Shown: positions 36,875-53,031, counted from the first letter of the stretch. The stretch is 64,000 nucleotides of DNA from Terriglobia bacterium (GCA_963819125.1 CAWFUQ010000009.1:13813-77812); one strand, 5' to 3'. Notes: a model not told the origin generated them from the sequence alone. A program made the numbers and translations.

Positions 36875-36959
36875 TTAGACCAATCCTCAACCACGCGCGA
36901 GCCTAAACTTCGGGCTCCGCAGTTGCGGCGGAATCGGGCTCGACCGCTCACCGCATGTT

Positions 36960-38219
36960 TCATTTCGCGGCAGGGATTTCCTTCATGTCCTCGCAGGCTT
37001 TTCTCTCTCCACCTGCACACGCCTTGCGATAGAGTTCCAAAGCACGAGCGTAATCCCGCACCACGCCCTTGGCGTCCCGATAACGGGCCGCAGCAGCAGC
37101 GCACCCTTCCGCGCTTCCCGCGTCGCATGCCTGGACGAACATCGCCGTCGCGTAGCTCTGACTGTCCTTGACGCTCTTGCCGTTCACCCCGAACAGCGAC
37201 ATCGTCCTGGCCCGATCGACCAGCTCGTCCACCTTTTTCACGGCTTCACAACTTGCGGCGCGGCCGGCCTCACACGCCTTTCGATGGAGCTGCATCGCCT
37301 TCACCGGGTCTGGTGCCGTCCCGCGCCCTTCCGCATTCATGACCGCGGCCTTGCCACACGCTTCCACATCGCCGGCATCGCAATTCCGTTCGTAGAACAG
37401 GCGATCGAATACATCTCTACCCTTCTCAGCGTCGGTTTGGGCTCTCCCTGGCTGGTCTTTCAGCAATTTCGTGGGATCGAAATCGCGATGTTCGAAGTCG
37501 TAATTTGATTTGTCCTCGCGTGCCTTCTCGGCGGCTTTCCGCTGCTGATTTTTCATGACCGTCCGCACGGCGACGATCGACAACACCAGAGCCACGACTA
37601 CGCCGGCAATGACTAGCCACACAGTTCCCGAGGACTGCGCACGTCCCGGCGCGCCGGCCGTCATTGCCAGCAAAGGCTTCCCGCATTTTGGACAGAACTT
37701 ACCTCCTTGTCCGGGCGCTCCGCAAGCTGCGCAGAATGACGGTGCTTGGACCACGGCGGCGGCCTCCACGGGAGTCTCCATGGCAAAGCGCGGCGTTTGG
37801 TCCACGACGACGGGCGGACTCGCTTGGTGCTGAAATATTTCCCGGGCGGGCGAAAAGTAGATCAACCCCAGGGTCAATCCGTTCAGCAGCGTCAAGCAGG
37901 TTTCGCAGAGGTCGGTCCAGCCGGTGGTGACGAATGGTCCCAGCAACAGGGACAAGAGCTGGACCACGATGGTGGTGACCAGATAAAAAACGGGCGCCCC
38001 ACGCCAGACCACGAAAAGACAAATGTTCGAGGCCAGATAAGCGAGAGCGAACCCGATCGCCAACACCGTGGCGCCCGGGACGATGAGATCTTTGTTCGCA
38101 GAGATGCTCTGCAGCGCGAAAGGAAGTGACGAGCTCGTCAGGTACGAGGCGAGCCCCATCGCCAGTCCCACGGGAATCTGCAGCAGAATCAGAAGTCGAA
38201 GCAGGCGTTTCGCAGGCAT
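36960..38219 (-). CDS. polytopic membrane protein with zinc ribbon, TM and Sel1-like C-terminal repeats
   Basis: Start at MPAKRLL. A 4-TM N-domain is followed by FCAACGAPGQGGKFCPKCGKPL, a TM helix and Cys-containing Sel1-like repeats (ACEAGRAASCE, ACDAGSAEGCAAAAARY, ACAGGERKACEDM). Confidence 0.7.
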   Translation of the reverse strand: MPAKRLLRLLILLQIPVGLAMGLASYLTSSSLPFALQSISANKDLIVPGATVLAIGFALAYLASNICLFVVWRGAPVFYLVTTIVVQLLSLLLGPFVTTGWTDLCETCLTLLNGLTLGLIYFSPAREIFQHQASPPVVVDQTPRFAMETPVEAAAVVQAPSFCAACGAPGQGGKFCPKCGKPLLAMTAGAPGRAQSSGTVWLVIAGVVVALVLSIVAVRTVMKNQQRKAAEKAREDKSNYDFEHRDFDPTKLLKDQPGRAQTDAEKGRDVFDRLFYERNCDAGDVEACGKAAVMNAEGRGTAPDPVKAMQLHRKACEAGRAASCEAVKKVDELVDRARTMSLFGVNGKSVKDSQSYATAMFVQACDAGSAEGCAAAAARYRDAKGVVRDYARALELYRKACAGGERKACEDMKEIPAAK

Positions 38220-38230
38220 AGTCGCTTCAC

Positions 38231-38780
38231 TCACAGAAAAGATTTGCCGCACTGCGTGCAAAATTTCGTTCCATCATTGGCGGTGCCGCAGGCTGGGCAG
38301 AACAGCACCCGTCTTGCCGCGACGTGTGGGCGCGGCGGTGCGGGTGTTGCGGGGGCTGGTTTCAGGTTCAGGCCGTCATACTGCTCCTTGAGCGGCGAGC
38401 TATAGATCATCATGAAGATGACTCCCGTCAGCACAACATTCGCCGAATGAAAAAAAATCCATCGAGCCGCTTCTGACCAGTGGCCCATGGACAATCGACA
38501 CGAGAATCGAAATCAAGTTGACGCCCGCGTACAGCGGCCGCGCGACATTCGAAAAGGCGCACAGACCGATACCCGCGCCGACCAGACCGATGAACAAGAT
38601 CAGGAAGGCGAGAAGGTCGACCCTGGATCCGAACCGAGCGGATAGCGGAGAGACGTCAGCCAGCGACGCCGCAAATTCTCCAAACAATCTGGGAGCGGAT
38701 AAGCTGATCGAGACGCGCTGCCCGATCCAGAGCGCCGCCTGAAGCGCCACCAGCATTCGAAGAATGTTTTTCGTTGGCAT
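38231..38780 (-). CDS. paralog of the N-domain plus zinc ribbon of 36960..38219, frame broken at an A8/T8 run
   Basis: ORFs 38400..38780 and 38231..38494 join into one paralog-like protein if one base is removed from the 8-nt homopolymer at 38460..38467. GPLVRSGSMDFFHSANVVLTGVIFMMIYSSPLKE aligns with GPFVTTGWTDLCETCLTLLNGLTLGLIYFSPARE. Confidence 0.55.
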
Positions 38781-38849: not shown

Positions 38850-39472
38850 TTACAGCCCGGACACGGGTGCTGAGACGATTTGCCACCCGCCTGCCTCCAG
38901 CCACATCCGGGTCACCTTGGCGGCATCGACGAAGCTGGCGCGGGCGAGGACGGGTCGCGGATGAAGAATCCGGTGATCTCTTCCGACAGAGCGTCTCGCG
39001 CCACGCCCTCGATCAGGACGGCATGGTTGGCTTCGATCATGCTGGGCTCGTCGGCGCGATCCCATAGCTCGGCTGCATTTACGAACGCGATGACATTCGA
39101 GCCCGCCTCGATATTCTGCGCCAAGTCCTCGAGCGAGTGTCCGCGCTCGGAATCGGCGGGCGCGTCGGAATTCGCAAGCAGACGGAGCAAATGATCTTGA
39201 GACACTCCCCCAGAAAGCGCGACGTCGGATGCGTCGTCGCACCAGCCGAGGTGCATGCCGCGAGTCACCAGATCGCCCTCCGAAAGTGCCCTGCCTAGGT
39301 AGAGCGCGCCCGCCGCCAGACTGCTGGTGTTCTCGAACCCGAAAGGATTGCTGAGCTGCGGCGTCGATTCCGCGGTCATATCCACGCCTGCCACGGTCAT
39401 GTCGCGGCCCCGGATCACCTCGCGGCGGACCGAAACATCGACTTGAAGCGGAACCTCTCGAAAATTAGACAT
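38850..39472 (-). CDS. papain-fold peptidase-like protein, Cys->Ser variant (paralog of 50680..51390), C-terminal frame break
   Basis: GFENTSSLAAGAL aligns with GFQGTCGLCSCEN, SLEDLAQNIEAGSNVIAFVNAAELW with TLEDLAGNIEQGRGVIIGVNAGVLW, and NHAVLIEGVARD with NHAITVTGVARD. The tail ASFVDAAKVTRMWLEAGGWQIV (like AKFVDAAMMREGWEEVGGSQVV) is in another frame, with the shift near 38935..38950. Confidence 0.6.
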
Positions 39473-39490: not shown

Positions 39491-40225
39491 CTAAGCAGGG
39501 CTCCAATTCAAGTTCCGAATCACCTTGCCACATGCGGTTCGCAACGCGCTCAAACTTCCCCGCGCCATGTAGCGGCGATCGGAATCCAGGACGATCTTGC
39601 GGAACGCCTCTTCTTCCGCCGCGGTCAACGGCTGCGCGGAGTCGGAAGCAGCCCTCGTGAGCGCCTCCGCAATCGCCGCGGGACTGCCCATCTGGTCGCG
39701 ATGATTCACGAACAGGTACGCACGCAGCTTGGGAATCGCCCGGCAATGGAGCACCGCGCAATGGGACCCACTGATCCCCAGCGTCTTCCCGATCTCATCC
39801 CATGACGCTTCGGCATGATTCAATTTCTCGAGTACGCAGTGCGATTCCTGGCCAGTCAATTCACCTGCTTCCGCAGCCCTGGAAAGCATGGACCGCAGGA
39901 AATCGGCTGACATCGCCGGCTCCGGCGCCACCTTCTTCGCAACCAGTCCGGGATTGCTTTCTGCAACTGTTTCAAGAGGTGTATCCCGGACCCGCTGCCG
40001 CACCAGCCGTTGAATCGCCCGGTTGATTTCGTTCCGCGCGATCTTCTGTACCCATTGGCTGAAGGGGCAATCGCCGCGAAATGTCGCCGAGCCTCGCCAG
40101 GCGCGAATGGCGACCTGTTGAACGACATCGCTCGCGAGCGCCGGATTGGACAATGCGTACCGGCACGCTCGTTCTACATGGACGGACGCTTCGCGCCATT
40201 GAGTCTCGAACTCTTCGCTGGTCAT
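39491..40225 (-). CDS. ECF-type sigma-70 family factor with ~70-aa C-terminal extension
   Basis: MTSEEFETQW...; region 2 is ASDVVQQVAIRAWRGSATFRGDCPFSQWVQKIARNEINRAIQR; region 4 is LTGQESHCVLEKLNHAEASWDEIGKTLGISGSHCAVLHCRAIPKLRAYL. The ATG overlaps a TGA in the neighbouring frame (GGATGACC). Confidence 0.75.
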   Translation of the reverse strand: MTSEEFETQWREASVHVERACRYALSNPALASDVVQQVAIRAWRGSATFRGDCPFSQWVQKIARNEINRAIQRLVRQRVRDTPLETVAESNPGLVAKKVAPEPAMSADFLRSMLSRAAEAGELTGQESHCVLEKLNHAEASWDEIGKTLGISGSHCAVLHCRAIPKLRAYLFVNHRDQMGSPAAIAEALTRAASDSAQPLTAAEEEAFRKIVLDSDRRYMARGSLSALRTACGKVIRNLNWSPA

Positions 40226-43200
40226 CCGCTTCCAAATACGTCGAGCGCCTTGCTCTCGGCGAGACCGCTTCGTTGGGATAACAACACGAGAAGCCGGTCG
40301 CGCGCGGCGATACTGTCGGCACCCGGCATCTTTGTGTTCGTCAACAAGCAATAGAGCCACGCCTGGCGGACGGCGCCGTCGGCGGGCTGTCCCGAGATCG
40401 CTCCCCACGGATTGCATGGCCGCGACCGTGGCGCGTTCCACAGATAAAATAGCTTTCTCGGGCGGATCCTGCATGACGAGCGGAAGCACTTGCCGCGTCA
40501 AGCCGCCGATGTGAGCAGCGACGAAAGAGAACATGAGGCAACGCATCGGGCACGCTTCGCAGCCAGGCTCCTCTCGTGGAGGCCGGTTGGTGACGGTCGC
40601 CACGAGCTGTTGATGAGCCTGCTCGAACGCATGACGCTGTTCGTCGTTCAACGCAGAGGCGCGCAGCCACCCAATCAGAAACGGACCGAGTGCGCGCGAC
40701 GCGGCTTCGCGCGTCAATCGATTCTCGGGAAGCAGTCCGCTTTCCGGAGTCAGCGCGCGGCGGCTCTCCAGAAAAACACCGAGCCAGTCGTGGACCGCCG
40801 AGGCCGCGGCGCAATACTCGATTCCAAATCCGCCATCGAGACGCAGACCGGACAATGCGCGGAGATCGGCACGCCAGGTATTCCACGCCGCCCACGCGCT
40901 GGCCGCGTCACCGAGCAAGAGATGTTCGCAGAACGCCGTCAGGCTCCTCTTCACGCGATCCCATCCGCGCGCCTCCTCGAGCGGCGTCAGAAAATCGCAA
41001 GGCGAGGCGCACCACTGGCAGCCTGCGTGTTGGCGGAGGTGGGCGCGCTTCTCCGGATCTGCCAGACGCGCCAGGTCGCGAACCTGATGATCGGTCAGCG
41101 CCTCTACGCGCGCTCCTTTCACCGGCAGGATCCGCACTAGAATCGCCGAACCGATTCGCTCATCATGAACGGCGGCCTGCCCGGTCGGCAGCGCGTTGAG
41201 ATGTCGGATCTGCGGCTCGCTCAGATTCATGCAGCTTCCGATCGCGTGCCGGTCCTCGGAGTCCAGGAGCTGATGCGCGATCTTGAGGTAGGAGTTCTTG
41301 AGAATCTCCGGCGCCAGCTTGCTGGGAATCTGGTCAGCGATGACGAAGCCTTCTCCATAAGCGCGCATTTCGGCGAGCATGTTGGTGAACATCGAAACGG
41401 CTTTCCCGCGCGGGTCGCCTGCCTCCGCGGAGACGCCGCCGCGTGGGGCTTCCAGCAGCCGGTGCGCCTCTTCCACTAGCGTCAAATGCTGCAGCCGCTC
41501 GCGCTGGTTTTCCGGCAGGTCGCGCTGTCGCGCTTCCGCGTATTGGCACAACAGGACAAACAACAGCGCCATGACGAAAGATTTTTCGTCGTCATCGCCT
41601 AGGTCCTGCAATTCCACTACCGCCGGCCGGGAAAAAATGGATTCGAGCGGCGTGGATCTCCTGGTGTTGAGCGCCAGGCCTTTGTTGCCGACCATCAGGC
41701 TGCGCAGCCGCGAGCGAAGTGCCGCGCCCATGTTCTGATGAATCTCCTGCCCATATTTTTTCCTGGCCAGCACGACCTCGATTTTGTCATGCAGATCCTG
41801 AAGATTAGGCGTTAGCGCGCTCAAATCGTCGAGCGAGGGACGATCTCCGAGAGAGGCGTTGCCGGAGTCGTACAGGCTCCAGCCACGCTCCGTGTAGATC
41901 TCGAGCAGCGCTTCCTCCAGCACGTACTGCATTCCGGCGAACATCGAAAAGGAGGCGTTAAAGACCGCCTTCAACATATCGATATGCCGTCCGAGAGGAA
42001 CGCCCTGCACCGGCGCCAGCGGATTCAGCCGGAGCGGGAGGGTAACCCCGCCACCAAAACCGAAGACGCCGAGCTTGCCTTTCAATTCTGGGGTCTGCAG
42101 CAGCCGGCGATATTCGCTCTTCGCCGGCTCGAGCACCAGGAACGGCACGCGCAGTTTCTCGAAAGACTCGAGGAGAATCTGCATGCACGTATTCGTCTTT
42201 CCGCTGCCGGGCGTTCCGGTGACGAACACGTGCCGGTTCAGCGATCCCGCGGGAATGGCAACCGGGCTCAGATCGCGGCTGAGTTCGTCCTGGAGGACGC
42301 CGATGGTGATCGAATCGGACTTGGGCGCCGGGACCGAGAGAGCGAACTCGCTGAAATCGCGCATCGGCAGACCGGGGATCTCGCGCTGCGGGGGCGTCAC
42401 CAGTACCGACAGCTCTTCGCAATCGAGACAGGTCGCCAGGGCGTCGAAGGCCGGTCCGAGCGGATGCCCCTGGTCGCCGGAGGCAGGCCGCATTTCCAGA
42501 ATGCGTCCGTATTCAATGCCGTTGCGCACGGACTCATCAGGGGGAGATAGGATACGCAGCGGATCGAGCGCGGAAGCATCGCCGCCGCCGAGACCGCGCA
42601 ATCCGCCGGCGACCGCGTGAACCGCAGCGTCGCTTTCGGCCACCAGGTACACTGCTGTTTGCCAGCATCCGCTGCCGCGGGCCCGGATCAGACGGTCCGT
42701 GTACTGTTGGATCATCTGCTCGCAGGCTTCGGCATGGGCGTCCAGCAAATCGACCCCGCCCGATTCGGACCAGTTCGTCCCGTCCTGGATCTGGCTTGCT
42801 CTGCCGGTGCTGTCCCGGCGTCCCGCCAAGTTCGCGGCAGTCATGGTTGTATTGAGCGCCGCGACGAATGGCATGGCGTTCATCCCTAGAGGAAGGGCGA
42901 CCAGGCTGGAGAAAGCCGCCACACTCGAAAGACAGAGCGGGAGATCCTGCAGCCACCGGTTCTTCTTCTGTGTTTCCTCAGTCTCGGTACGCGACTCGGA
43001 TTTCGATCCACCCTGCACCCGCTGCACCGTGCGCCGCACGTAGGCGTGCATCTCGCTCTTGAGGCGCCGGCAGATGTCGATGGCATCATCGATCGCCTCC
43101 GCTTCCAGGGGCCGGGCGACCAACATCAGCGCATAAGGCTGATCGCCGACGGCGGCCACCAGCCGGTCCAGACTCTGGAAGCTCGATGAGGGATCCTTCG

Positions 43201-43753
43201 ATCGCCGGGAGGGTATCCCGGTCATCACGCGCGTCGCTGGGGCATCGCGCAGGAAGGAAGCCAAATCCGGGAGGTCCTGCTGAGTGAGGCCGGCGAGCGG
43301 CCCGAATTCGAGCCCGTTCAAGTGTGAGCGGTAGGCGCTCTCCTGCATGGAGAGATAATCTTCCGTCGATCGCGCTCCGGCGCCGATGATGCGCCGGCCG
43401 CCCACGTACAGACGATGGCGGCCGCGTGAGCCATGAAGAATCACCACGAGTGAGTGCCCGGGATCGGAGCATGCCGTCAACACTTGCGGCATGGCGCGAG
43501 CGAAAATTCCGGGCTCCTGCGGGCGGCCCAGGCCCGTCACTTCGCGCAGCAGCGGACGCGCAATGTCGCCAGTTCTCGGCTGGATGTTCCAGTCAGCAGC
43601 CCGAAAGTGCGAGAGATACCTTCGTTCCAGAACCGACACCAATGCCTGCGGCAGACCTTCGGTGAATTGCACCTCGGCGGCCAGCGAGGGTCGCGCGGGC
43701 TCAGCGGCCGCGGATACCGCGACAGGCTGCGCCGGACGGGGATCAATCGGCAT
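40222..43753 (-). CDS. large HerA/FtsK-superfamily (DUF87-like) ATPase with ~480-aa unknown N-domain and Cys-cluster C-domain; apparent frame break near 40385..40395
   Basis: Walker A VFVTGTPGSGKTN, Walker B HLTLVEEAHRLLE, and GEGFVIADQIPSKL. The C-terminus has CQWCASPC and CEACPMRC. The last ~55 codons (GQPADGAVRQAWLYCLLTNTKMPGADSIAARDRLLVLLSQRSGLAESKALDVFGSG*) are in a different frame with better third-position GC. Confidence 0.8.
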
Positions 43754-44900
43754 CGACGTTTCCTCGTTCCCATGGCGGAATCAGCGGGGCTGGAGATGGC
43801 GAAGATTCCAGGTCAGGTTGCGCGAAGGTGGACGCCTCAATCGCGGGCATGGAATCGAGGAGCATTCCCGAGGGATGCTCGCCCAACTCGCCCCACCAAG
43901 TCGCTCCCGCGGCGACATCTTCGGCCGCTGCGCCGCTCCGCCATACCGGGGCCAGCGCGGCTGCGATTCTTTCGGCGAACGGCCAAACGGAACCCAGCCC
44001 GCCCACTAACAACAGTTCCGGCGAGTCACTTCCGATGGCTCGCAGCGCTCCTCGGATCGCGTCTGGAAGCTGCTGCGAGAACGAAACGAATTCGGGCCAA
44101 GCCGTGCATTCCCGATAAGAGAGTGACAGCGGAGCGTATAAGCGCTCCTCGAAGATCTCGCGCCACTCAACCGGTTGCTCAGCGCTCGATTGAGAAAGGC
44201 GCGCGGCGTAGCGGGCGGCCGCCTCGCGAAGGGGTCGTTCGAAGCCGGTTCCGGGTTCTTCGTTCAGCCGCTTGCGCACCAGGTCGAGCAGCCGCCGGTT
44301 CCAAGCGGACTCGCCGGCTTCCTCGATCGCCTGGGGGGCGCTGACAGCCGCGATCGACGGGAAGCCACGGCTGTCCCATTCAAGCCAGAAGGCAGTCACG
44401 AGAGTGGACGTCTCTCCCACAGCGATTGCGACGACGGCTTTCTGTTTGGCTGGTTCGAGCGACCGCGATGCGAACCAGCGGCACAGCAGCGCATGCGTGG
44501 CCGGAAGAACCGTGATCTCATCGAACCCCGCGGCGCGGGCCAAAGCGTCGACCGTATGCGCCTCCGTTCGAAAATTCGATCCCTGCAAAGCGATCGCGAG
44601 ACGGTATCCGTTTTTTCGCACGGGCGCGAGCCGGCCGAGATAGGCGGATAGACGGCGATACGCTCCCTCCCAAAAAAGACGGGCACCGGGCTCCTCGACC
44701 CATGCGCCGTTTCCGGAGGCGGTCCACAGAGGGGCATGTCCAGCCGCGCGGCTGCCCCAATCTCCCGTGCCCGCCACGGCGTTCGGAATTTGTGCGCGGA
44801 CGCCGTCGCCGACCAAAGCAACGTGCGCACCTTCATCACCCTCCTCGCGTAAAGCGATCACTGTGACGGAAGGCTGGTAATCCACGCCGAAGGTATTCAT
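43743..44900 (-). CDS. degenerate actin/Hsp70-fold (ASKHA-like) protein
   Basis: MNTFGVDYQPSVTVIAL, VVAIAVGETSTLVTAF and ELLLVGGLGSVWPFAERI sit where the phosphate-1, phosphate-2 and adenosine motifs would be. The stop overlaps the ATPase start by 11 nt. The fold assignment is tentative. Confidence 0.5.
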   Translation of the reverse strand: MNTFGVDYQPSVTVIALREEGDEGAHVALVGDGVRAQIPNAVAGTGDWGSRAAGHAPLWTASGNGAWVEEPGARLFWEGAYRRLSAYLGRLAPVRKNGYRLAIALQGSNFRTEAHTVDALARAAGFDEITVLPATHALLCRWFASRSLEPAKQKAVVAIAVGETSTLVTAFWLEWDSRGFPSIAAVSAPQAIEEAGESAWNRRLLDLVRKRLNEEPGTGFERPLREAAARYAARLSQSSAEQPVEWREIFEERLYAPLSLSYRECTAWPEFVSFSQQLPDAIRGALRAIGSDSPELLLVGGLGSVWPFAERIAAALAPVWRSGAAAEDVAAGATWWGELGEHPSGMLLDSMPAIEASTFAQPDLESSPSPAPLIPPWERGNVDAD

Positions 44901-44966
44901 CCGGCGAACCCTTGTTTCCATCCCCGCGGCGTCTCCGTGACGAAAGGGGCGGCCAGTTTGGCTGCT

Positions 44967-46569
44967 TCATCTGCCAGTTCTCGAAAGGCGGCTCTGCGCG
45001 TCCCGAAGCCGCCGAAGAGCGGTTTCATCGGGCATCGGACAATCCGCGGGCTGCAGCGAATAAAGCCGATCGAAACCCTCCAGGAGGCGCGGGCCGCGGG
45101 ACTGCATCGCCGTGATCAGGTTTTCGATCAGCCGCTGGATCTCCGCGCGAACGGTGGCCAGCCATTGCGGCGGACGGCCCAGCTTCTCGCCGACGAATGC
45201 AGGAATGGCCGCCACCACCGCATTGACGCCGCCTGCTTCGATTTTTTCAAGAAACCGGATCGGAAGAGCCGGCGGACAAGTCTGGCTCAATAAATACTCG
45301 GTCCACTCCGGATTCAAAGGCGCTTCGCCGCTTCGTCGCAACGTTTCACCGGCATGTTGAATCATCCGCCGCGCGGCGGCATCGGCGACGGCGGCGATTT
45401 CGCGATTCAATTCCTCCGCGTGGATTCCGCCTGAAGCCACTGCCACATTCGTCAGTCGTGATGAAATGCTTGCGCCGCAGGCTTTCGCGCCAACGGAGAA
45501 ATCCTCCAGGAATTTTTCGATAGCCTTGGACAAGGATTCCGCGAGTTGGCGCTTTCCCTCCGCACGGCGATCCACTTCCGCTGCCTCAGCTTCTTGCCGC
45601 TCGAAATCAGCCACCGCTTGGGCAGATGGGTTCTTCGAGCCGCGACGCACAATCCCGCAGCGCTGCCGCAGCGCGCCATAGCCGCGTCCGCATCACGCGT
45701 GGATGAAATCGCAGAATCCACTTGCACCATGAATCCCAGAAGATCCGCGCCGCCAAAGGTGTTCTGTCCGGATTTGCACATCGCACGCCCGCCACCGGCA
45801 GGATGGTGGGAGGCGCTTGTTCCGGAAAGCCCATATCCGGAGACGAAATGGCACACTTTATTGATCAACTGCGGAGCGCTTTTAGACAGGAACTGTTCCC
45901 ACTCCGCGGGACTGTCGGTACGAAGAAATCCATTCAGGATGAAGATCACCGAAGCCGGTCCGGATTCCTGGACGTGGCTCGCGAGGAATTCCATCTCCAC
46001 CTGCGAAAGGAGCTGGCGCGACGTCAGCACCCACGCCAACACATCCGAGTACGCGGCCGACCGGCGCGTGCGTTCGTCCATCTCGGGAGTATCGTTGTAT
46101 CCGGGCGAATCCACCCAGCACGCGTTGGCTGGAATCACGGAATCCTTGAGAACGATTTCGGCACGTTCGATAGCCGCCACCTCGCTGCGCCGCTCTCCAC
46201 GTTCCGAAAGCAATGTGATTTCGGCGCGAATGGCTTCAGTGGAGCAGGGGATCGCGCGCCTTGCTCCCGCTTCGATGACAACGGCGCCATCCTCATCGCC
46301 ACTCAGCAAGCAACAGATCGCGCCGGTATCGGGCACATCGTCGACCGGTAGGATGTCGCGCCCGACCACCGCGTTCATCATGGTCGATTTGCCGGCCTTG
46401 AACACGCCCCCGAAATTCACGGTCACCTGTTCTTCCCCGATCACACGTGTGAGCTTCCAAGCCGCGTCGCGATATCCGGAGCGTCGGCCTTCGTCATCGC
46501 AGCGAGTTCCTCGATCCGGGCATTCAGATCCTGCACAGCTTCTTTCGAAACACCAGCACAAAAAATCAT
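44967..46569 (-). pseudogene. dynamin-like GTPase 2, reading frame broken at least three times
   Basis: ATG at 46569 gives MIFCAGVSKEAVQDLNARIEELAAMTKADAPDIA. The GTPase domain lies in a second frame (GGVFKAGKSTMMNAVVG, WVDSPGYND). The helical C-terminal 227 aa lie in a third frame (ORF 44967..45650). Confidence 0.6.
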
Positions 46570-46577
46570 GCGGCTCT

Positions 46578-48591
46578 TTACGCTGTCTGCTGCAAACTCA
46601 CATTGAGCACCGTAAGCTCCTGCCGCAGCGCCCCGACCCGGCGCAACGATTGATCGAGCGAGGAAAGCATCCGCGCTTTTTCCGACTGGCTTCGCCGGTT
46701 GTTTTCGGCGATGGTGCGCAGATTTCTCTCTTTCCCTCGATGATGGTCAGCACCGCGGCGCTGATGTCCGTAGCCAGCTTGTCAATGTACGCCCCCGTTT
46801 CCGATTCGATCGGTGGAGCATAATTTTTCACCCACTTCATCGAGCCGAGGCAGGACGTCGTCGAGCGCTTTCTTCTTGACTCTCTGGGTGAGCCCGATGG
46901 TCCCGCCGACTACGTTCGCCACCATCCCTGCGCCGATGCCCCACAGCACCAGGTAGGGCAGTCCGAACCATCCAAGAGCGGCTACCGCTGCCAGGCGCGC
47001 GGCGATATTGAAGCTCAATCCGCGAAATCCGGTGGATAGCCCGGTCAGTGTCGTGAAATCCTGAAAGAGAACCAGTCCAACCACGGTCGACCACGCCCGT
47101 TCCTGATCGCTGATCATCTTATTGTCCGCTCCCGGTTCGAGTTTCCAGCCGGTCACCTGGAATTGGACATCGTCGAACTCGCGCTCGATCGCCGCCACCT
47201 CGTCCTGAACTTCCCGCAGCAGCGCTTCGAGGCCGGGCTCCAGAATTTTCTGCGCCGTGTCACCTTCCGCTGGCGGTTCCGTTGCACCAGGAGAGAACCT
47301 GCTCGCTGATCTGGCGTTCGCAGAACGAGTATGCCTCGGCCAACATTTCCTTCTGATGCGCGAGCGCCAGAGCCGTATCGGACGGCAGCTTTTCTGCCAT
47401 GAGCCGATCGGGAAGGGTTTGTTTCAACTGCACGGTTACCATTCCGAACCCGGCACGGATGTCGCGCAGGCTCTGGTCGCGGTACCGCCGGAAGATCTCC
47501 GGTAGCCGTTCATAACGCTTGCGAATGTCAGCCAGTTGCGGTTGAATCGCTTCGAACGCGACCCGCAATTGTTCGGTGTCGGCCTGCAGCGCGGCTTGCC
47601 GCTGCCGGACCTGCTGCTCGATGGTGACCGCCGAGTTGTCCGCCGCTTTCAGAAAACGATCGATATGAACGCGCTGCCGGTCGTGGACCAGGAACTCGCC
47701 GAGTTTCGCTTCAAAGCCGGCCAGACCCGATTGCTCCATCTGCCTCGCGTCAGCCAGCAACTTGCCCTGCTCCGCTTGCCTGGCGTCTACGAAGTAAATG
47801 TCGCGGCTCTTGAAATCCTGCGGAGCGTCGGCGCTGCCGCCAAAGTCCGTCACCAGACGACGCCACACAAAACCCTTGAAGCGATCATCCACCGCACGGC
47901 CATCCTGCAAATTCACCACCGTGAAAACGCGTGTTCCCGAGTTGGTGAGCGTCTCGTGCACGAACTTCCGCTCGTCCTCGCCGGCCAGGACGTCGCTGCG
48001 GTACACGACGATCGCCACGTCGCACTTGCCGATCGCCTGCCGCGTCACTTCGGTGCGCTCGGGGATATCGTCGGTGCCGGGCGAGTCGATGATCGTGACG
48101 CCGGATTGGCATAGCTCAGCCGGAAAGCCCATCTCGAATTCACGAATCTTGCGGAAGAAATCGCGCGTTTCGCTCTCGTTCTCGCGTACCGTGCCCTCGC
48201 GCCGGTACTTTTCTAGCGACCAGTCTTCTGAGTTTCCATCAAAACCCCATGCGCGAACAGTGGGCCGCTCGGCGTAATGAATGGAGGTCAGCGTAGCGGT
48301 GCACGGCAGCTCGCCAACCGGCATGGGGCCCTGGCCGAACCCGAGCTCGGGAACCGGCCTTGTGGAGCCACCAAGAAGCGCATTCAGAAGGGTCGATTTA
48401 CCGTTCTTAAAGCGGCCCGTGACAATGATCTGAAAAGTATCCGACGCCAGCCGTTCGGCGGTTTGCTCCAGCCGGGCGGCGGTCTCTTTCATATCGAGAC
48501 TCGACGCCAGCGTTGTCAGATCGAGAATTGTTTTGCGAGCCTGGGTTTTCGATCGTCCAAATTCCTGTTCCAGTAATTGCTTCAGAACCAT
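46578..48591 (-). pseudogene. dynamin-like GTPase 1 (BDLP-like, ~670 aa) split over four frames
   Basis: G1 is GRFKNGKSTLLNALLG and G3 is IIDSPGTDD. ORF 47260..48591 continues sensibly into 46782..47198 (hydrophobic paddle LAAVAALGWFGLPYLVLWGIGAGMVANVVGG). It then continues into 46598..46840 and into a fourth frame ending ...LRQELTVLNVSLQQTA* at 46578. Confidence 0.7.
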
Positions 48592-48610
48592 CGATGCGCT
48601 CCATCCTACC

Positions 48611-50116
48611 CTATAGCCTTTGCCTGTACAACAACAACTGAGCTCGATCCAACTCCGCGGCCGAATCTCCGTCGGGAACCTTCATCGCCTGTGCGTAGGC
48701 GGCATCCAATGTGGTCTCGATCGCGCTTAATTCCGCAGCCAGGCGATCGCGGTATTCGGCGATCGCGCCCTGGATCGCGGTCCTCGATTCGGGGATCGCT
48801 TGGCGCGTCATCGCATGAATGGCTTGCCGCGCCGCCTGAGCGGACTGCTCGAAGGATTGGCCGCGCCGCGCGATACCCAGCGCCGCAAGCAAGCTGGAAA
48901 CGGCGACCGTCGCGACCAGACCGGTGCTGAGCGCCGCGGCTAAACCGAACAGCGCCACGACACCGGTCACTCTATCCTGCCACTCCGGTCCTGAGGTGGT
49001 GTGCTCCAGCGCGGGAGCGTGCGGATCCACCGGAATTCTCAGCGACACCGCAGCCGGCCGCGCGGGATTTCCCGCCATCGCGTGAACGAAGTCCCAATCG
49101 ATTCGATCCAGCAGCGTCTGCGTTTCGAGGATGATCCCGGCGACCCGCTGATCGAGTTCCACCTCCAGGCGCAGCCGCCATGAGGTCATCCCTTCTTCGA
49201 TGCACTTTTCCAGCAGCGACTGAAACTTGCGGCTGTAGACATGAGTGTCCTTCCACAGTCCGGACTGTCCCTCCCGCACCTTTTCGATCCGCCGTAGCAG
49301 ATCCTGTTCGAGCGCCAGCAGCGAGGCGGCTACCTGGGCCGAAAGACTCGCGGCGTCGCCATCCATGCGGCGCGCCACGCGGCTTCGAACTTCAGCGACT
49401 TCAACTCGCGCGCGGCGCAGGCGGCCGGCATCGCCGTCGCGGGCCGGATGTGTTGCCGGCGTGAATCCTTCCGCGAAGTCCAGCAGCCGGGACACTTGCG
49501 CGCGATCCAGCAATTCGACATCGGGATCGGCCAGAGGCCGCCGCAGCAGCGCCGCCAGTTCCTCCGCGTCACGGCGGCAGCGGTCGCGCAGAAATTCGTT
49601 GGGTTCGGAAGCGCTCCACAAGTAGCACTGATACGCGAGGAGATCCTGCCGCTGCCACTCGCGTTTTGGATCGGGAACCACCAGCCGCCAGATGGCGCGT
49701 TCCATCTGGTCCAGATCCTCCGGCGATTTGAGGCGTTCCGCGTGCGTGAATACGATCGCGAAGGATTCGAGAGGCCGCGTCAGGAACTGCTCCGCGATAG
49801 CCGTCGCCGCGGCTGCATCGAGTGCGCGGCCGCACTCGAAAACGGCGACCAGCTTCGTCGCGAACCACGCGCTAAACGGCGGCGCGGCGATCTCCCCGAT
49901 GGGGGCTTCCGTGATTTCCGCGGGATCGGCCGTTTGCTGCATCCAGTTCCGCAGCGGTGTAGCGTCCACGCCAGCGCCGTGCGCGAGCAGGATCTCCCGC
50001 CGCGTCCTGCGAGACAGAATCGCCGCCGCAAGATCCTCGACGGATTTCCAGCCGCGGCGCGCCGCCAGGTCGCGTATGCCCTGGACAACCTCTTCGTTAA
50101 TGGATGCTGCCGTCAT
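48611..50116 (-). CDS. dynamin-like paralog with degenerate P-loop and hydrophobic paddle
   Basis: 501 aa. LLAHGAGVDATPLRNWM sits where G1 would be, with no GK[ST]. There is a helical stalk, a paddle-like VTGVVALFGLAAALSTGLVATVAVSSLLAALGIA and a C-terminal helix. The layout matches the two downstream DLPs. Confidence 0.55.
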   Translation of the reverse strand: MTAASINEEVVQGIRDLAARRGWKSVEDLAAAILSRRTRREILLAHGAGVDATPLRNWMQQTADPAEITEAPIGEIAAPPFSAWFATKLVAVFECGRALDAAAATAIAEQFLTRPLESFAIVFTHAERLKSPEDLDQMERAIWRLVVPDPKREWQRQDLLAYQCYLWSASEPNEFLRDRCRRDAEELAALLRRPLADPDVELLDRAQVSRLLDFAEGFTPATHPARDGDAGRLRRARVEVAEVRSRVARRMDGDAASLSAQVAASLLALEQDLLRRIEKVREGQSGLWKDTHVYSRKFQSLLEKCIEEGMTSWRLRLEVELDQRVAGIILETQTLLDRIDWDFVHAMAGNPARPAAVSLRIPVDPHAPALEHTTSGPEWQDRVTGVVALFGLAAALSTGLVATVAVSSLLAALGIARRGQSFEQSAQAARQAIHAMTRQAIPESRTAIQGAIAEYRDRLAAELSAIETTLDAAYAQAMKVPDGDSAAELDRAQLLLYRQRL

Positions 50117-50122: not shown

Positions 50123-50647
50123 CTACTTCTCCAGCCATTCGAAGAAATCGGGCACGATGGCGCGATACTGCGGCTGAAGCGGCTCCGGAAGAAGTTCCGT
50201 CAACATCGACGCAAGGCTCCGGCGCTCGATCGCATCCCCTGGTTCGCCTGCGAAAAAGCGCGGCGTCAGAGTCTCCAGTTTCTCTTCCATAGTCTTCAAC
50301 GATTGACGCAGCTCGTCTCTGGTGATCGCGACGCGCGGCAACGTGACCGCCTCGAATTTCGCGCCCGATGGAAAGGTAATCGACTTCGTCAATGCGTAGA
50401 CCATCAGCCGCCCGCCGTAGGCTGCCACTACCCACCAGCGGTCTGGGGCGCTTTGCTGCATGGGCTCCTGCGGCCGCCGCAGCGCCGCGGCTGCGAAGTA
50501 GGCGTAGGAAGGCTCGCCCCATTTCATCGTCGGTAGCGGCAGTGAGATGGCATGCTCGGTGGGAATTTCCGAGCGGATCAGGAAGTGGGTCTTCTGAAGC
50601 TCGCGCAGTTCCGCGTAACTCATGAGATGTTTTTGGATGGTTGTCAT
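50123..50647 (-). CDS. small hypothetical protein (174 aa)
   Basis: I prefer the start at MTTIQKHL because GGAGAG lies 6 nt upstream. The ORF track opens at 50752, which overlaps the peptidase gene. There is a 6-nt gap to the next gene and no known domain. Confidence 0.5.
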   Translation of the reverse strand: MTTIQKHLMSYAELRELQKTHFLIRSEIPTEHAISLPLPTMKWGEPSYAYFAAAALRRPQEPMQQSAPDRWWVVAAYGGRLMVYALTKSITFPSGAKFEAVTLPRVAITRDELRQSLKTMEEKLETLTPRFFAGEPGDAIERRSLASMLTELLPEPLQPQYRAIVPDFFEWLEK

Positions 50648-50679
50648 ATCTGCTCTCTCCGCTTGGTCCATATGGTTTG

Positions 50680-51390
50680 TTAATTCGGCAAAGCCTTGGA
50701 AAAGGGGCGGCTTTCCGCGGTCACAACCTGCGATCCGCCGACTTCTTCCCAACCCTCACGCATCATGGCAGCGTCCACGAATTTTGCGGCTTCGCCTGTT
50801 CCGCTGTCATTCACGAAAAAGCCCTGAATATCGCCGGTCGCGGGATCGCGGGCTACTCCTGTCACCGTGATTGCATGATTCGATACGTTGCCGCTGTCGG
50901 CGTTCGCGTCATTCCAAAGCACGCCGGCATTGACCCCGATGATCACTCCCCGGCCCTGCTCGATGTTGCCGGCCAGATCCTCCAGCGTTCCGCCATGAGA
51001 CGCGCTGGAGGGGACACCGAGACGCGTGAGGATGTCGGCACGCCCTTCCGCCGTGGTGCCTCCGTTCTTGGCCGGGTCCGGATCGTCGCATGAGCACAGA
51101 CCGCGCGTACCTGCGAAAAATACCAGGTCCGATTCCGTTACTTCCAGTCCGAACGACCGCAGAACATTTTCGCATGAGCACAGTCCACAGGTTCCCTGAA
51201 ATCCGCTGAAACTGTCGCCTTGCCGGTGCGTAAATCGTTTGTCCCCTTCCGGGTCGCCGATCACCACGGTCTCACGGCCGTCCGGAAGCACGTCCACGTG
51301 GGACGGCACCTCACCAGTGCCGAAATCGCTGAAATTGGGCACATCAGCAGGTACGTCCCGGATGAAATCGTCTTTGAATCTGTCTTCCAT
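50680..51390 (-). CDS. papain-fold cysteine peptidase-like protein
   Basis: A Cys motif (GFQGTCGLCSCENVLRSFG), a His motif (NHAITVTGVARD) and a downstream D/N (GFFVNDSG) suggest a C-H-D/N triad. No signal peptide. I cannot assign the family by eye. Confidence 0.65.
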   Translation of the reverse strand: MEDRFKDDFIRDVPADVPNFSDFGTGEVPSHVDVLPDGRETVVIGDPEGDKRFTHRQGDSFSGFQGTCGLCSCENVLRSFGLEVTESDLVFFAGTRGLCSCDDPDPAKNGGTTAEGRADILTRLGVPSSASHGGTLEDLAGNIEQGRGVIIGVNAGVLWNDANADSGNVSNHAITVTGVARDPATGDIQGFFVNDSGTGEAAKFVDAAMMREGWEEVGGSQVVTAESRPFSKALPN

Positions 51391-51452: not shown

Positions 51453-52328
51453 TTACAGCTTGTTGGAACATTTCTCCGTCAATGCTCCTAAGAGATAGGC
51501 ACTTGTCCAGATCGCCGCTGACATCAGGGGGAAGAAGAGGATGACGCCGATTCCGCTCAACGCGGCGATCGCGGTTATCGAAATGACGGCGGCCATCATG
51601 CACCACAGCAACACCAGAAACTTTGCGAATCCAAAGAAATGACGGAAAAGCAGGGCGACACACGCCGGAAGGTTAAAGAAGCTGCCGGCCTTTCCCGTTT
51701 GCGAGAACCGGACGACGGCAGCGCTGAATACCGGCAACGCCAGCGAAATGTACCCGAGAACAATTACCGGTCGCCACCACGATAGTACGAGCTGCGCGTA
51801 CAGCATTTCCCATAAGGGAGGACTCGCCTGGCCCTGCAGATGGTGCCACAGCCATAGTGAGATTTGGAGAGCGAGGGTCCACAGTCCGAACGAAGCAACC
51901 CACCAGTACAGCATCACAGGCAGCATTATATAGAGCCAGAAGAACGCGACGACGATCGCGCCATCCGTCAGAAAGCGGCCAAGATCGTTTGGCTGCGGCA
52001 AAGATTCCGGCATGCGACGGCTCTTTCTCCGGACCGCGTCGATCGCCCATCCGGCGCTGAGAAACATTCCCAGTGGAATCGGCAAAGGAAGCCACCACAG
52101 GAACGTCATCCACAGACTCCGGATCCATTCGCGTCGATAGAACGGCCAACTGACGGAATTTCCAGCGTACGGCGTCCGCCAGATCATGCTGAGCGGCACC
52201 CAGTCCTGAAGCGCGTCGGTTTTCGCCAGGTCGGATAAGCCCACCCTGCCCTCGAACAGGAACGCCCTTATTTGCGTGTCCGAGTACGGGCCGTACGATT
52301 GGCCTGTCCTATGGATGAAGTAATTCAC
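51453..52328 (-). CDS. GYF_2 (DUF4339)-like domain fused to a polytopic membrane domain
   Basis: A GTG start gives VNYFIHRTGQSYGPYSDTQIRAFLFEGRVGLSDLAKTDALQDWVPLSMIW, followed by about 6 TM helices. The ORF track opens further upstream at 52544. Confidence 0.65.
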   Translation of the reverse strand: MNYFIHRTGQSYGPYSDTQIRAFLFEGRVGLSDLAKTDALQDWVPLSMIWRTPYAGNSVSWPFYRREWIRSLWMTFLWWLPLPIPLGMFLSAGWAIDAVRRKSRRMPESLPQPNDLGRFLTDGAIVVAFFWLYIMLPVMLYWWVASFGLWTLALQISLWLWHHLQGQASPPLWEMLYAQLVLSWWRPVIVLGYISLALPVFSAAVVRFSQTGKAGSFFNLPACVALLFRHFFGFAKFLVLLWCMMAAVISITAIAALSGIGVILFFPLMSAAIWTSAYLLGALTEKCSNKL

Positions 52329-52542
52329 CGTTTCGACCCTTCCCGATCGTCGATGAGAATGACCCTGGCAAGTCCGCAAGCTTACAACATTCTGCGAATT
52401 TGCCGCGAACTTTCTTCGCCGCTGCAACCTGCTCGGGCAGAACCTGTGCATGCCCTCGTCCCGAGGCGATTTGGAAGGTCGATGTATAATCACCGCTGAC
52501 CTGGACACCCCAAAAGGAAATCGTGGCTCGGATGTCGAACAC

Positions 52543-53031
52543 ATGTCTGTGACGTGCCCAAAGTGCGGATTGATGAGTCCGCAAGGGGCGGAGGAATGCG
52601 ACTGCGGCTACAACTTCGCGACCGGCAGCTTCACGCCAAAGCCCAAGCCTAGCCCTGCCCCGGGAACGAGCGTCTCAACATATCTCACGTTCTCGGCGGG
52701 AGCTGTATGCTGCTGGGGCTGGATGATTTTCACACTTGCAGAGCGAGGATTACACCCTTCCACTCTTGCTGCAGCTTCATATTTCGTGGTGTTAGTCCTA
52801 CTGACTTGTGGTTTCGCGTTTTCGTTTCTGAGGCTTGCCAAACGCTCCCAGTGGAGCCAGATGATTATGCTGATCCAAATCGTCACGCTGATGGCGGTGG
52901 CTGGATCGTTTGCGTGGCAACTCGGCTTTTCTGACGAAGGCGTTTTCATTGCCTTCATGGGTGGTGGGATTGTGCTCATCGCCGGGCTCTTTTGGCTCGC
53001 TGCCCGCGTGAACAAGAAGCGAGGCTACTGA
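52543..53031 (+). CDS. N-terminal zinc-ribbon membrane protein
   Basis: MSVTCPKCGLMSPQGAEECDCGYNF is followed by four TM helices. An alternative start at 52450 is possible. Confidence 0.6.
   Translation: MSVTCPKCGLMSPQGAEECDCGYNFATGSFTPKPKPSPAPGTSVSTYLTFSAGAVCCWGWMIFTLAERGLHPSTLAAASYFVVLVLLTCGFAFSFLRLAKRSQWSQMIMLIQIVTLMAVAGSFAWQLGFSDEGVFIAFMGGGIVLIAGLFWLAARVNKKRGY

What the first reader, a model, noticed from the sequence alone, without database searches (positions are those of the whole stretch)
44967..50116. Three tandem dynamin-like paralogs, the first a pseudo-GTPase
DLP1 (46578..48591) and DLP2 (44967..46569) carry clear G1/G3 motifs: GRFKNGKST / DSPG and GVFKAGKST / DSPG. The upstream 501-aa protein has the same layout (N-domain, long helical stalk, hydrophobic paddle VTGVVALFGLAAALSTGLVATVAVSSLLAALGIA, terminal helix). 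In the G1 position it reads LLAHGAGVDATPLRNWM, so it has no GK[ST]. Bacterial DLPs commonly work as pairs (Nostoc BDLP, B. subtilis DynA, E. coli LeoABC). Dynamin-like pairs are also listed as an anti-phage system (Eleos, LeoA/LeoBC) in defence catalogues. A trio with one catalytically dead member, embedded in a larger NTPase operon, is unusual.
Basis: partly seen in the sequence, partly recalled or inferred. Interest (0 to 1): 0.75.

Follow-up and report, generated by a model that had tools for sequence, protein, structure and literature searches.

The report
Bacterial dynamin trio with dead partner
Three adjacent genes encode two working-looking bacterial dynamin GTPases and a third, membrane-anchored dynamin relative that has lost every nucleotide-binding motif; this trio is conserved across several bacterial phyla and I found no published description of it.

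Summary
On the minus strand lie p500 (48611-50116), DLP1 (46578-48591) and DLP2 (44897-46569, not 44967). DLP1 and DLP2 pass Pfam Dynamin_N well above threshold, and their G1/G3/G4 residues are invariant in their families. Nine single-base indels break them in the window. Three are absent from an independent 99.8%-identical contig, so I treat all nine as assembly errors.

p500 has no Pfam hit, but it is a dynamin relative:
- A 126-sequence profile aligns to the DLP1 family (hhalign 97.9%, E 5e-13).
- A confident AlphaFold model (pLDDT 85) hits Nostoc BDLP, IniA, Campylobacter DLP1/2, SynDLP, MxA and mitofusins first.

None of 122 full-length family representatives has a GxxxxGK[ST] motif or any GK[ST] in the N-domain. 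That N-domain is nevertheless the best-conserved part of the protein.

The trio recurs in Actinomycetota, Gammaproteobacteria, Abditibacteriota and Acidobacteriota. It usually sits in an 8-10 gene operon with a papain-like peptidase, a HerA-like ATPase and an ECF sigma factor; in one MAG only the trio was found on an 11-kb contig.

It is not a LeoA/LeoBC (Eleos) orthologue. Most likely it is a heterotypic dynamin machine with a non-catalytic scaffold subunit. Its biological role is unknown.

The parts
48611..50116 (-). p500: 501-aa dynamin-like pseudo-GTPase (two N-terminal helices, alpha/beta domain without a P-loop, helical stalk, hydrophobic paddle, C-terminal helices)
   Evidence: Intact ORF. 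No Pfam or NCBIfam hit. hhalign to the DLP1 family 97.9%. AF2 pLDDT 85. Foldseek top hits are BDLP, IniA and Cj-DLP. 23 of 64 family members hit PADLOC LeoBC in the stalk region.
49532..50002 (-). p500 degenerate G-like domain (residues 39-195): five beta-alpha units
   Evidence: AF2 secondary structure. It is the most conserved block of the family, 0.44 against 0.30-0.35 elsewhere. Conserved D51, W58, C95-G96, R114-P115 and G125-A-E127 replace the G motifs.
49940..49990 (-). p500 first strand-loop-helix, LLAHGAGVDATPLRNWM (topological G1 position, no GK[ST])
48869..48970 (-). p500 hydrophobic paddle or hairpin (residues 383-416)
   Evidence: Kyte-Doolittle maximum 2.15 over 35 residues. Lies at the tip between the stalk helices, in a low-pLDDT region.
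46578..48591 (-). DLP1: 670-aa dynamin-like GTPase with helical stalk and hydrophobic paddle. The window copy carries three 1-bp indel errors (47273, 46811, 46736).
   Evidence: Dynamin_N 5.8e-21 and PF21808. Repaired ORF. 91% identical to intact P0017. G1 48391-48417, G3 48067-48087, G4 47899-47919, paddle 46896-46994.
44897..46569 (-). DLP2: 556-aa dynamin-like GTPase with no hydrophobic segment. The window copy carries six 1-bp indel errors (46458, 45843, 45787, 45713, 45624, 44988).
   Evidence: Dynamin_N 1.7e-17. Repaired ORF. Three of the indels are absent in L013. G1 46382-46408, G3 46091-46111, G4 45914-45943. No hydrophobic segment.
50680..51390 (-). Operon context: papain-like (Peptidase_C39_2-like) cysteine peptidase that keeps its Cys and His
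   Evidence: Pfam 3e-4. Conserved QGTCGLCSCE and NHAITV. Same position in L003, L005, L006, L010, L011 and L012.
50123..50671 (-). Operon context: conserved ~180-aa protein of unknown fold
   Evidence: Alignment A6. No family hit. Not related to the DLP G domain.
43743..44900 (-). Operon context: conserved 385-aa protein of unknown fold; its start overlaps the DLP2 stop
   Evidence: Alignment A4. No Pfam or PDB hit.
40222..43753 (-). Operon context: ~1180-aa HerA/FtsK-like P-loop ATPase. A 1-bp indel at 40406 falsely fuses it to the sigma ORF.
   Evidence: DUF87/HerA. Indel.
39491..40225 (-). Operon context: ECF-type sigma-70 factor
   Evidence: Sigma70_r2. TIGR02937.
38856..39472 (-). Operon context: second C39_2-like paralogue lacking the catalytic Cys (pseudo-peptidase). 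Carries a 1-bp indel at 38934.

Best explanation
The three genes encode one heterotypic bacterial dynamin machine.

- DLP1 is a BDLP-type GTPase that inserts into the cytoplasmic membrane through a hydrophobic paddle.
- DLP2 is a soluble GTPase partner that probably pairs with DLP1 through the G domains, as in other operon-paired bacterial DLPs.
- p500 is an ancient DLP1-like paralogue. It kept the stalk and a membrane paddle, but its G domain has become a compact five-strand alpha/beta module with no P-loop, no DxxG and no N/TKxD. It cannot use GTP in the canonical way.

I infer that p500 acts as a non-catalytic, membrane-resident scaffold or regulator that co-assembles with the two active DLPs. 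The conserved pseudo-G domain would serve as the interaction surface.

The trio is usually one module of a larger accessory operon: papain-like peptidase, 180-aa protein, trio, 385-aa protein, HerA-like ATPase and ECF sigma factor. I think this operon most likely remodels or seals the membrane in response to envelope damage or infection.

Shown: gene identities, homology, fold, motif loss, conservation and synteny. Inferred: physical assembly, the scaffold role and the biological trigger.
For: - DLP1 and DLP2 are dynamin-family proteins. G1, G2-Thr, G3 and G4-Asn are invariant in their families, and the two families are related over the G domain (98.9%).
- p500 is homologous to DLP1 from strand beta4 of the G domain through the stalk. 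It also matches DLP2 in the same register, weakly (P 0.0014).
- The p500 HMM hits DLP1 orthologues directly (8e-7 and 2.8e-7).
- 23 of 64 family members hit the LeoBC stalk model.
- The confident AF2 model has a BDLP-like fold.
- No GxxxxGK[ST] motif, and no GK[ST] in the N-domain, in any of 122 representatives, yet the pseudo-G domain is the most conserved region.
- Hydrophobic segments are present in p500 and DLP1 but not in DLP2.
- p500 lies immediately upstream of DLP1-DLP2 in all 11 distinct loci examined: L001, L003, L004, L005 (= L007), L006, L009, L010, L011, L012, L014 and the window.
- In Acidobacteriota MAG L014 only the trio was found, on an 11-kb contig.
- Gene spacing is tight: gaps of 6, 19 and 8 nt and a 4-nt overlap.
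- Precedent from papers: most bacterial DLP genes are paired in operons and act as hetero-oligomers (PMC6104087 abstract). The fungal DRP-like pseudoenzyme Mmc1 self-assembles and is proposed to be a scaffold (10.1101/2023.10.03.560745).
Against: - There is no direct evidence that the three proteins interact.
- Alleles of p500 and of DLP1-DLP2 are not co-inherited. The window and L001 share an identical p500 but have DLP1/DLP2 19-31% diverged at the DNA level. That argues against tight allele-specific co-adaptation.
- The exact equivalence of the p500 loops to G1/G3 is unresolved.
- Non-canonical nucleotide binding by p500 cannot be excluded from sequence.
- The role of the operon is guesswork. 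No component apart from the DLPs, the ATPase, the sigma factor and the peptidase has a recognisable family.
Confidence: 0.6

Rival explanations
1. The locus is an Eleos (LeoA/LeoBC) type anti-phage dynamin system, or a larger derivative of one. The DLPs would act with the HerA-like ATPase and the peptidase to block phage at the membrane.
For: - PADLOC LeoBC and LeoA are the only defence models hit by DLP1, DLP2 and p500.
- The ATPase hits PADLOC mad8 (4.9e-17) and several defence HerA models.
- The DLP1-DLP2-p387 block is replaced by a 19-31% divergent allele between otherwise identical strains. The differences are biased to the third codon position, a pattern common in conflict genes.
- The system is rare and patchily distributed across distant phyla.
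- B. subtilis DynA contributes to phage defence (PMC12998192 abstract).
Against: - LeoA/LeoBC scores are low and partial (21-47 bits). Gene content differs: there are three DLP-type genes, not LeoA plus LeoBC, and there are five or more further conserved genes.
- A dedicated ECF sigma factor would, to my knowledge, be unusual in a defence system.
- No relatives were found in viral contigs, and only a distant DLP in plasmids.
- No defence phenotype has been tested.
Confidence: 0.25
2. p500 together with the upstream 180-aa protein is a split dynamin like LeoC plus LeoB. The 180-aa protein would supply the P-loop half of the G domain, so the pair would be an active GTPase rather than a pseudo-GTPase.
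For: - Sizes and gene order resemble LeoC (206 aa: P-loop plus switch 1) followed by LeoB (572 aa: switch 2, stalk, paddle) (PMC4159319).
- A zero-confidence stretch of the greedy hhalign puts p500 HGAGVD opposite DLP1 DSPGTD, the G3 motif.
Against: - The 180-aa family has no GK[ST] in any of its 8 members.
- It shows no profile similarity to the DLP1 or DLP2 G domains (P 0.23 and 0.46).
- The AF2 model of p500 alone already forms a complete five-strand alpha/beta domain at high confidence.
- The L014 trio lacks the 180-aa gene.
Confidence: 0.04
3. DLP1 and DLP2 in this organism are decaying pseudogenes and the trio is a dead remnant.
For: There are nine frameshifting indels in 2.3 kb of the window, against two in about 9 kb of flanking operon.
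Against: - The three indels covered by an independent assembly of the same population are absent there.
- Removing the nine single bases restores full ORFs with no stop codon and 81-92% identity to intact orthologues.
- Nanopore-type contigs L001 and L004 show different breaks, while three short-read or NCBI assemblies and nanopore-type L003 are intact.
- Substitutions between alleles are biased to the third codon position, which indicates purifying selection.
Confidence: 0.04

Closest known systems
Operon-paired bacterial dynamin-like proteins (Nostoc BDLP; Campylobacter jejuni DLP1/DLP2; Streptomyces DynA/DynB)
   Same: - Tandem DLP genes.
- G domain, helical neck and trunk, and a hydrophobic paddle in one partner, with a soluble second partner.
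- DLP1 matches Pfam Dynamin_N and Dynamin-like_hel_bact.
- The best structural match of p500 is BDLP 2j68.
   Different: - A third, conserved DLP-type gene without any nucleotide-binding motif.
- The trio is usually embedded in an 8-10 gene operon with a HerA-like ATPase, a papain-like peptidase and a sigma factor.
- NCBIfam DynA scores are far below cut-off (23-32 bits against 1600).
LeoABC / Eleos (LeoA plus LeoBC) of E. coli and relatives
   Same: - Three adjacent dynamin-type ORFs.
- One membrane-anchored DLP and one soluble DLP.
- Weak HMM similarity.
- LeoB, like p500, lacks a P-loop of its own (PMC4159319).
   Different: - In LeoABC the missing P-loop is supplied by LeoC, so LeoBC is a split but complete GTPase. 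Here no gene supplies it.
- HMM scores are only 21-47 bits.
- The accessory genes are different.
Mmc1, the fungal DRP-like pseudoenzyme (10.1101/2023.10.03.560745)
   Same: A dynamin-superfamily relative that lacks the GTP-binding and hydrolysis residues, is membrane-associated, and is proposed to act as a structural scaffold.
   Different: - It is a eukaryotic mitochondrial protein that works with MICOS, not with active DLP partners encoded beside it.
- No sequence relationship was tested here.
Mycobacterial IniA/IniC (iniBAC operon)
   Same: - Two DLPs in a stress-induced operon with a third non-GTPase gene.
- IniA is the second-best structural match of p500 (6j72, E 2.6e-5).
   Different: From my own knowledge, IniB is a small Ala/Gly-rich protein and not a DLP-fold protein. 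There is no HerA-like ATPase or peptidase.

Membership tests
Dynamin superfamily, bacterial DLP (for DLP1 and DLP2) | Dynamin_N (PF00350) match above the gathering score | tested here: met
   DLP1 75.7 bits and DLP2 64.4 bits against a cut-off of 27. Intact orthologues score 76.9 and 61.1 bits.
Dynamin superfamily, bacterial DLP (for DLP1 and DLP2) | G1 GxxxxGK[ST], G2 Thr, G3 DxxG and G4 N/TKxD-like motifs present and conserved | tested here: met
   DLP1: G59-T67, T98, D169-G172 and N227 are invariant in 33 sequences. DLP2: G62, G67-K68-S69, D161, P163-G164 and N220 are invariant and T89 is nearly invariant in 19 sequences.
Dynamin superfamily, bacterial DLP (for DLP1 and DLP2) | Helical stalk or trunk after the G domain, with a membrane paddle | tested here: inconclusive
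   DLP1: PF21808 at 55 bits, plus a hydrophobic segment at residues 533-565. DLP2: no helical-domain family hit and no hydrophobic segment.
Dynamin superfamily, bacterial DLP (for DLP1 and DLP2) | GTP hydrolysis and membrane remodelling activity | not testable with these tools
   Requires biochemistry.
Dynamin superfamily (for p500) | Detectable homology to bona fide DLPs | tested here: met
   hhalign of A3 against the DLP1 family: 97.9%, E 5.2e-13 over 243 columns. The HMM hits DLP1 orthologues. 23 of 64 members hit LeoBC. Pfam Dynamin_N itself does not hit.
Dynamin superfamily (for p500) | DLP fold: G-like alpha/beta domain plus long helical stalk with a tip insertion | tested here: met
   AF2 pLDDT 85.1, pTM 0.72. 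Foldseek PDB ranks 1-12 are all dynamin-superfamily, led by BDLP at 1.4e-6 with probability 1.0. TM-scores are low (0.16-0.30), as expected for multi-domain proteins with different hinge states.
Dynamin superfamily (for p500) | Functional nucleotide-binding motifs (P-loop, DxxG, N/TKxD) | tested here: not met
   No GK[ST] in the window protein. 0 of 122 representatives have a GxxxxGK[ST] motif or any GK[ST] in the N-domain. The loop consensus is A-[APG]-x-[GDE]-V-D. p500 is therefore filed as a DLP-like pseudo-GTPase, not as a GTPase.
Eleos / LeoABC anti-phage system | Proteins match the LeoA and LeoBC models over full length at orthologue-level scores | tested here: not met
   Best scores are 47 bits (DLP1 against LeoBC, two partial stretches), 35.5 bits (DLP1 against LeoA), 25.7 bits (DLP2 against LeoA) and 21-22 bits (p500 against the LeoBC C-terminal part).
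Eleos / LeoABC anti-phage system | Gene content of LeoA plus LeoBC, or split LeoB and LeoC with LeoC supplying the P-loop | tested here: not met
   There are two complete DLPs plus a protein with no P-loop. The upstream 180-aa protein is not LeoC-like (PMC4159319).
Eleos / LeoABC anti-phage system | Protection against phage | not testable with these tools
   Requires a phage challenge.

The most novel reading that the evidence does not exclude
The trio is the core of an undescribed, horizontally mobile multi-protein membrane machine: pseudo-dynamin scaffold, heterotypic dynamin pair, HerA/FtsK-type ATPase, active and inactive papain-like peptidase pair, and its own ECF sigma factor. This machine would constitute a new class of envelope-defence or vesicle/secretion system. 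Its dynamin cassette would be exchanged between strains under diversifying pressure.
Probability: 0.3. Interest if true: 0.8.

Novelty: new variant of a known kind. Interest (0 to 1): 0.6.

Why it matters
Bacterial dynamins are widespread, but their cellular roles and the logic of their hetero-oligomers remain poorly understood.

A conserved nucleotide-free third subunit gives a natural handle on how DLP assemblies are nucleated or restrained. It would be a bacterial counterpart to the eukaryotic DRP-like pseudoenzyme Mmc1.

The same cassette is present in culturable, and in the case of Streptomyces genetically tractable, genera (Streptomyces and Microbispora; loci L010 and L012). Knock-outs, localisation studies and phage or envelope-stress assays should therefore be feasible in these genera.

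The surrounding operon (HerA-like ATPase, papain-like peptidase with a dead paralogue, ECF sigma factor) has no description in the literature I could search. It may represent a new membrane-associated system.

Tried and rejected
1. Shallow 16-sequence p500 profile against DLP1. It gave only a weak hit (probability 7.5%, P 0.0047), and AF2 with the same alignment gave pLDDT 66. Both were superseded by the 126-sequence alignment.
2. Aligning the first 100 residues of p500 alone to the DLP1 N-terminus was not significant (P 0.31). The G1 assignment therefore rests on topology.
3. Split-DLP idea (180-aa protein as a LeoC equivalent): rejected.
4. Pseudogene idea: rejected.
5. The 385-aa protein. 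No hit by sequence or profile against PDB or Pfam. A motif-level resemblance to actin/Hsp70-type ATPases was not testable and is not claimed.
6. The 180-aa protein: no family hit.
7. Viral contigs and plasmids: no relatives of DLP1 apart from one distant Lysinibacillus DLP.
8. Promoter and terminator scan: nothing above chance.
9. Rfam and tRNA: none in the window.
10. Exact look-ups of seven other window proteins to name the organism failed, so the source organism is undetermined.
The scan with A1 found only 3 loci because its patterns were specific to the close subfamily.
12. Eight literature searches found no description of this operon or of a bacterial pseudo-GTPase DLP. The library is incomplete, so this is not proof of absence.

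Full report
WHAT IS THERE

The finding lies in a tightly packed minus-strand gene row. From upstream to downstream the genes are:
- a GYF_2+DUF4013 membrane protein (51453-52544);
- a Peptidase_C39_2-like protein (50680-51390);
- a conserved 180-aa protein (50123-50671);
- p500 (48611-50116);
- DLP1 (46578-48591);
- DLP2 (44897-46569);
- a conserved 385-aa protein (43743-44900);
- a HerA/DUF87-like ATPase of about 1180 aa (40222-43753);
- an ECF-type sigma factor (39491-40225);
- a second C39_2-like protein (about 38856-39472).

Gaps between p180, p500, DLP1 and DLP2 are 6, 19 and 8 nt. DLP2 overlaps the next gene by 4 nt.

THE TWO GTPASES

The DLP1 fragment matches Pfam Dynamin_N at 5.8e-21 (75.7 bits, cut-off 27) and Dynamin-like_hel_bact. 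The DLP2 fragment matches Dynamin_N at 1.7e-17. Intact orthologues give the same result.

They are invariant across 33 DLP1-family and 19 DLP2-family sequences. The two families are related over the G domain only (hhalign 98.9%, E 1.3e-17).

DLP1 has a hydrophobic paddle at residues 533-565. DLP2 has no hydrophobic segment.

FRAMESHIFTS ARE ARTEFACTS

In the window DLP1 and DLP2 are split into several ORFs. Alignment with the intact relative L003 shows nine single-base indels between 47273 and 44988. Only two more occur in the other ~9 kb of the operon. One of those, at 40406, falsely fuses the ATPase and sigma ORFs into a 1420-aa ORF.

Deleting or adding those single bases restores ORFs of 670 and 556 aa without internal stops.

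An independent contig from run ERR11594403 (L013) is 99.8% identical to window 45784-42114. It lacks the three insertions at 45713, 45625 and 44984 and reads DLP2's last 294 codons in one frame. Two nanopore-style contigs (L001, L004) are fragmented at other places. Three short-read or NCBI assemblies (L005, L006, L010) and the nanopore-style L003 are intact.

I conclude that the genes are intact in the organism.

P500 IS A DYNAMIN RELATIVE WITHOUT A NUCLEOTIDE SITE

p500 has no Pfam or NCBIfam match, and a word-indexed search found only 16 relatives. A full profile search of 1.84 billion representatives found 178 clusters at E <= 1e-3. Most full-length members are 470-560 aa.

None of the 122 near-full-length representatives has a GxxxxGK[ST] motif or any GK[ST] in the N-terminal domain.

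Profile comparisons gave the following:
- With 16 sequences, the comparison with the DLP1 family was weak (P 0.0047).
- With 126 sequences it gives 97.9% probability and E 5.2e-13 over 243 columns. p500 84-337 aligns to DLP1 188-466, that is from strand beta4 of the G domain through G4, G5 and into the stalk.
- A greedier alignment runs from p500 16 to 501 against DLP1 139-659, including the hydrophobic tip and the C-terminal helices.
- The comparison with DLP2 is weak (P 0.0014) but in the same register.
- The p500 HMM directly hits DLP1 orthologues (8e-7 and 2.8e-7).
- 23 of 64 family members individually hit the PADLOC LeoBC model in its stalk part.

AlphaFold2 with the deep alignment gives mean pLDDT 85.1 and pTM 0.72. 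The model has:
- two N-terminal helices;
- five beta-alpha units (residues about 39-195);
- long stalk helices (197-348 and 422-500);
- a low-confidence tip that contains the hydrophobic segment 383-417.

Foldseek against the PDB ranks Nostoc BDLP first (2j68, E 1.4e-6, probability 1.0). IniA, Campylobacter DLP1/DLP2, SynDLP, MxA and mitofusin 2 follow. Among the domain-only hits are other GTPases and, from my own knowledge of those entries, the pseudo-GTPases Tsr1 and IRGQ. The shallower model gave the same families.

IS THE HGAGVDAT LOOP THE G1 POSITION?

Topologically it is the first strand-loop-helix after two N-terminal helices, exactly as in DLP1, where the same layout ends in GRFKNGKST. 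Five beta-alpha units correspond to a TRAFAC GTPase core minus the antiparallel strand beta2. This last point is my inference from general knowledge of the fold.

By sequence the N-terminal 100 residues do not align significantly (P 0.31). A zero-confidence stretch of the greedy alignment instead places the loop opposite G3. The assignment is therefore plausible but not proven. The absence of any P-loop is certain either way.

Across the family the loop reads A-[APG]-x-[GDE]-V-D, with an acidic residue where the lysine would be. Other conserved residues sit at the C-terminal ends of the strands: C95-G96, R114-P115 and G125-A-E127. The pseudo-G domain is the best-conserved part of the protein, with mean top-residue frequency 0.44 against 0.30-0.35 elsewhere. 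It is therefore a maintained non-catalytic domain, not a decaying one.

CONSERVATION OF THE TRIO

A p500-family gene lies directly upstream of DLP1-DLP2 in every locus examined:
- L001, L003, L004 and L006 (metagenomes);
- L005/L007 (Steroidobacteraceae MAG);
- L009 (Abditibacteriota IAD-21, complete genome);
- L010 (Streptomyces);
- L012 (Microbispora);
- L011 (JGI metagenome);
- L014 (Acidobacteriota MAG).

Family membership was checked by HMM for L004, L009, L010, L011, L012 and L014. The p500 genes of L003, L005 and L006 are full-length relatives from the homology search.

Most loci carry the full row from C39-like peptidase through the HerA-like ATPase, with an ECF sigma factor at one end or the other. 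In L014 only the trio was found on the 11-kb contig: the neighbours are an LPG_synthase_C gene and an aldo-keto reductase on the opposite strand. That is the strongest argument that the three genes form a functional unit.

WHAT IT IS NOT

It is not an Eleos/LeoABC orthologue. PADLOC scores are 21-47 bits and partial.

In LeoABC the P-loop-less LeoB is completed by LeoC, which supplies the P-loop and switch 1 (PMC4159319). Here the upstream 180-aa protein has no P-loop and no profile similarity to DLP G domains, and it is absent from L014.

No relatives were found in viral contigs. Only one distant DLP was found in plasmids.

MECHANISM

Shown:
- two probably active DLPs, one with a membrane paddle and one soluble;
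- a third DLP-fold protein with a paddle but no nucleotide motifs;
- strict synteny across several phyla.

Inferred:
- the three co-assemble;
- p500 acts as a non-catalytic scaffold or regulator, with its conserved pseudo-G domain as the interface.

This follows what is known of paired bacterial DLPs that act as hetero-oligomers (PMC6104087, PMC6162298 abstracts) and of the fungal DRP-like pseudoenzyme Mmc1 (10.1101/2023.10.03.560745).

The role of the operon is open. I favour a membrane remodelling or sealing response to envelope insult. An anti-phage or other conflict function is the main rival. Three observations favour that rival: the strain-level cassette replacement described below, the sporadic phyletic spread, and the ATPase's similarity to defence HerA and mad8 models.

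MOSAIC ALLELES (SIDE OBSERVATION)

Contig L001 carries a p500 identical to the window's, and its flanks differ from the window by at most a few mismatches or indels per 300 nt. From window 48518 down to about 43700 (DLP1 from codon ~25, DLP2, the 385-aa gene and the start of the ATPase) it differs by 19-31%. These differences are concentrated at third codon positions: 182 of 277 in DLP1 and 150 of 249 in the 385-aa gene. They are therefore real diverged alleles under purifying selection.

Logan contig L002 breaks at 48474, close to that boundary. Against L003 the operon is also mosaic. This points to recombinational exchange of the DLP1-DLP2 cassette independently of p500.

VERDICT

The trio is a new variant of the known operon-paired bacterial dynamins. 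It is defined by a conserved pseudo-GTPase third member and, usually, by a larger operon for which I found no published description.

Noticed in passing
window 43700-48518 compared with L001: Two otherwise near-identical strains carry alleles of DLP1-DLP2 and the 385-aa gene that differ by 19-31% at the DNA level. The differences are biased to third codon positions. The breakpoints lie just inside DLP1 and at the start of the ATPase. This looks like recombinational replacement of a cassette.
   Followed up: partly
window 47273, 46811, 46736, 46458, 45843, 45787, 45713, 45624, 44988, 40406, 38934: Single-base indel errors in the assembly. They are concentrated in the strain-variable region. The one at 40406 creates a false 1420-aa ATPase-sigma fusion ORF. 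Three are directly shown to be absent from an independent contig.
   Followed up: yes
window 50680-51390 and about 38856-39472: Two Peptidase_C39_2-like paralogues (about 36% identical) bracket the operon. The upstream one keeps the catalytic Cys and His. The downstream one has lost the Cys in all three orthologues aligned, so the operon contains a second active-plus-dead enzyme pair.
   Followed up: partly
L009 13927-16107 (Abditibacteriota IAD-21): The DLP2 orthologue carries a C-terminal Malectin (carbohydrate-binding) domain, 8.7e-11. This is odd for a presumed cytoplasmic GTPase.
   Followed up: no
L014 1401-6993 (Acidobacteriota MAG GCA_034211275.1): On this 11-kb contig only the p500-DLP1-DLP2 trio was found, without the peptidase, 180-aa, 385-aa or ATPase genes nearby.
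   Followed up: yes
window 35178-38261: Genes for RDD, double-zinc-ribbon and Sel1 membrane proteins lie downstream of the operon. Similar RDD or zinc-ribbon genes sit beside the operon in L005 and L011.
   Followed up: no
window 40222-43753 (ATPase): The HerA-like ATPase has an N-terminal extension of about 490 aa with one hydrophobic segment. It matches NCBIfam ser_rich_anae_1 (2.6e-32), CedD (1.9e-15) and PADLOC mad8 (4.9e-17) better than canonical HerA.
   Followed up: no
window 14991-18092 and 26077-28626: A TPR-CHAT protease-like protein (CHAT 1.3e-61) and a Ser/Thr kinase with TPR repeats lie elsewhere in the window. No tRNA or Rfam family was found in the whole 64 kb.
   Followed up: no
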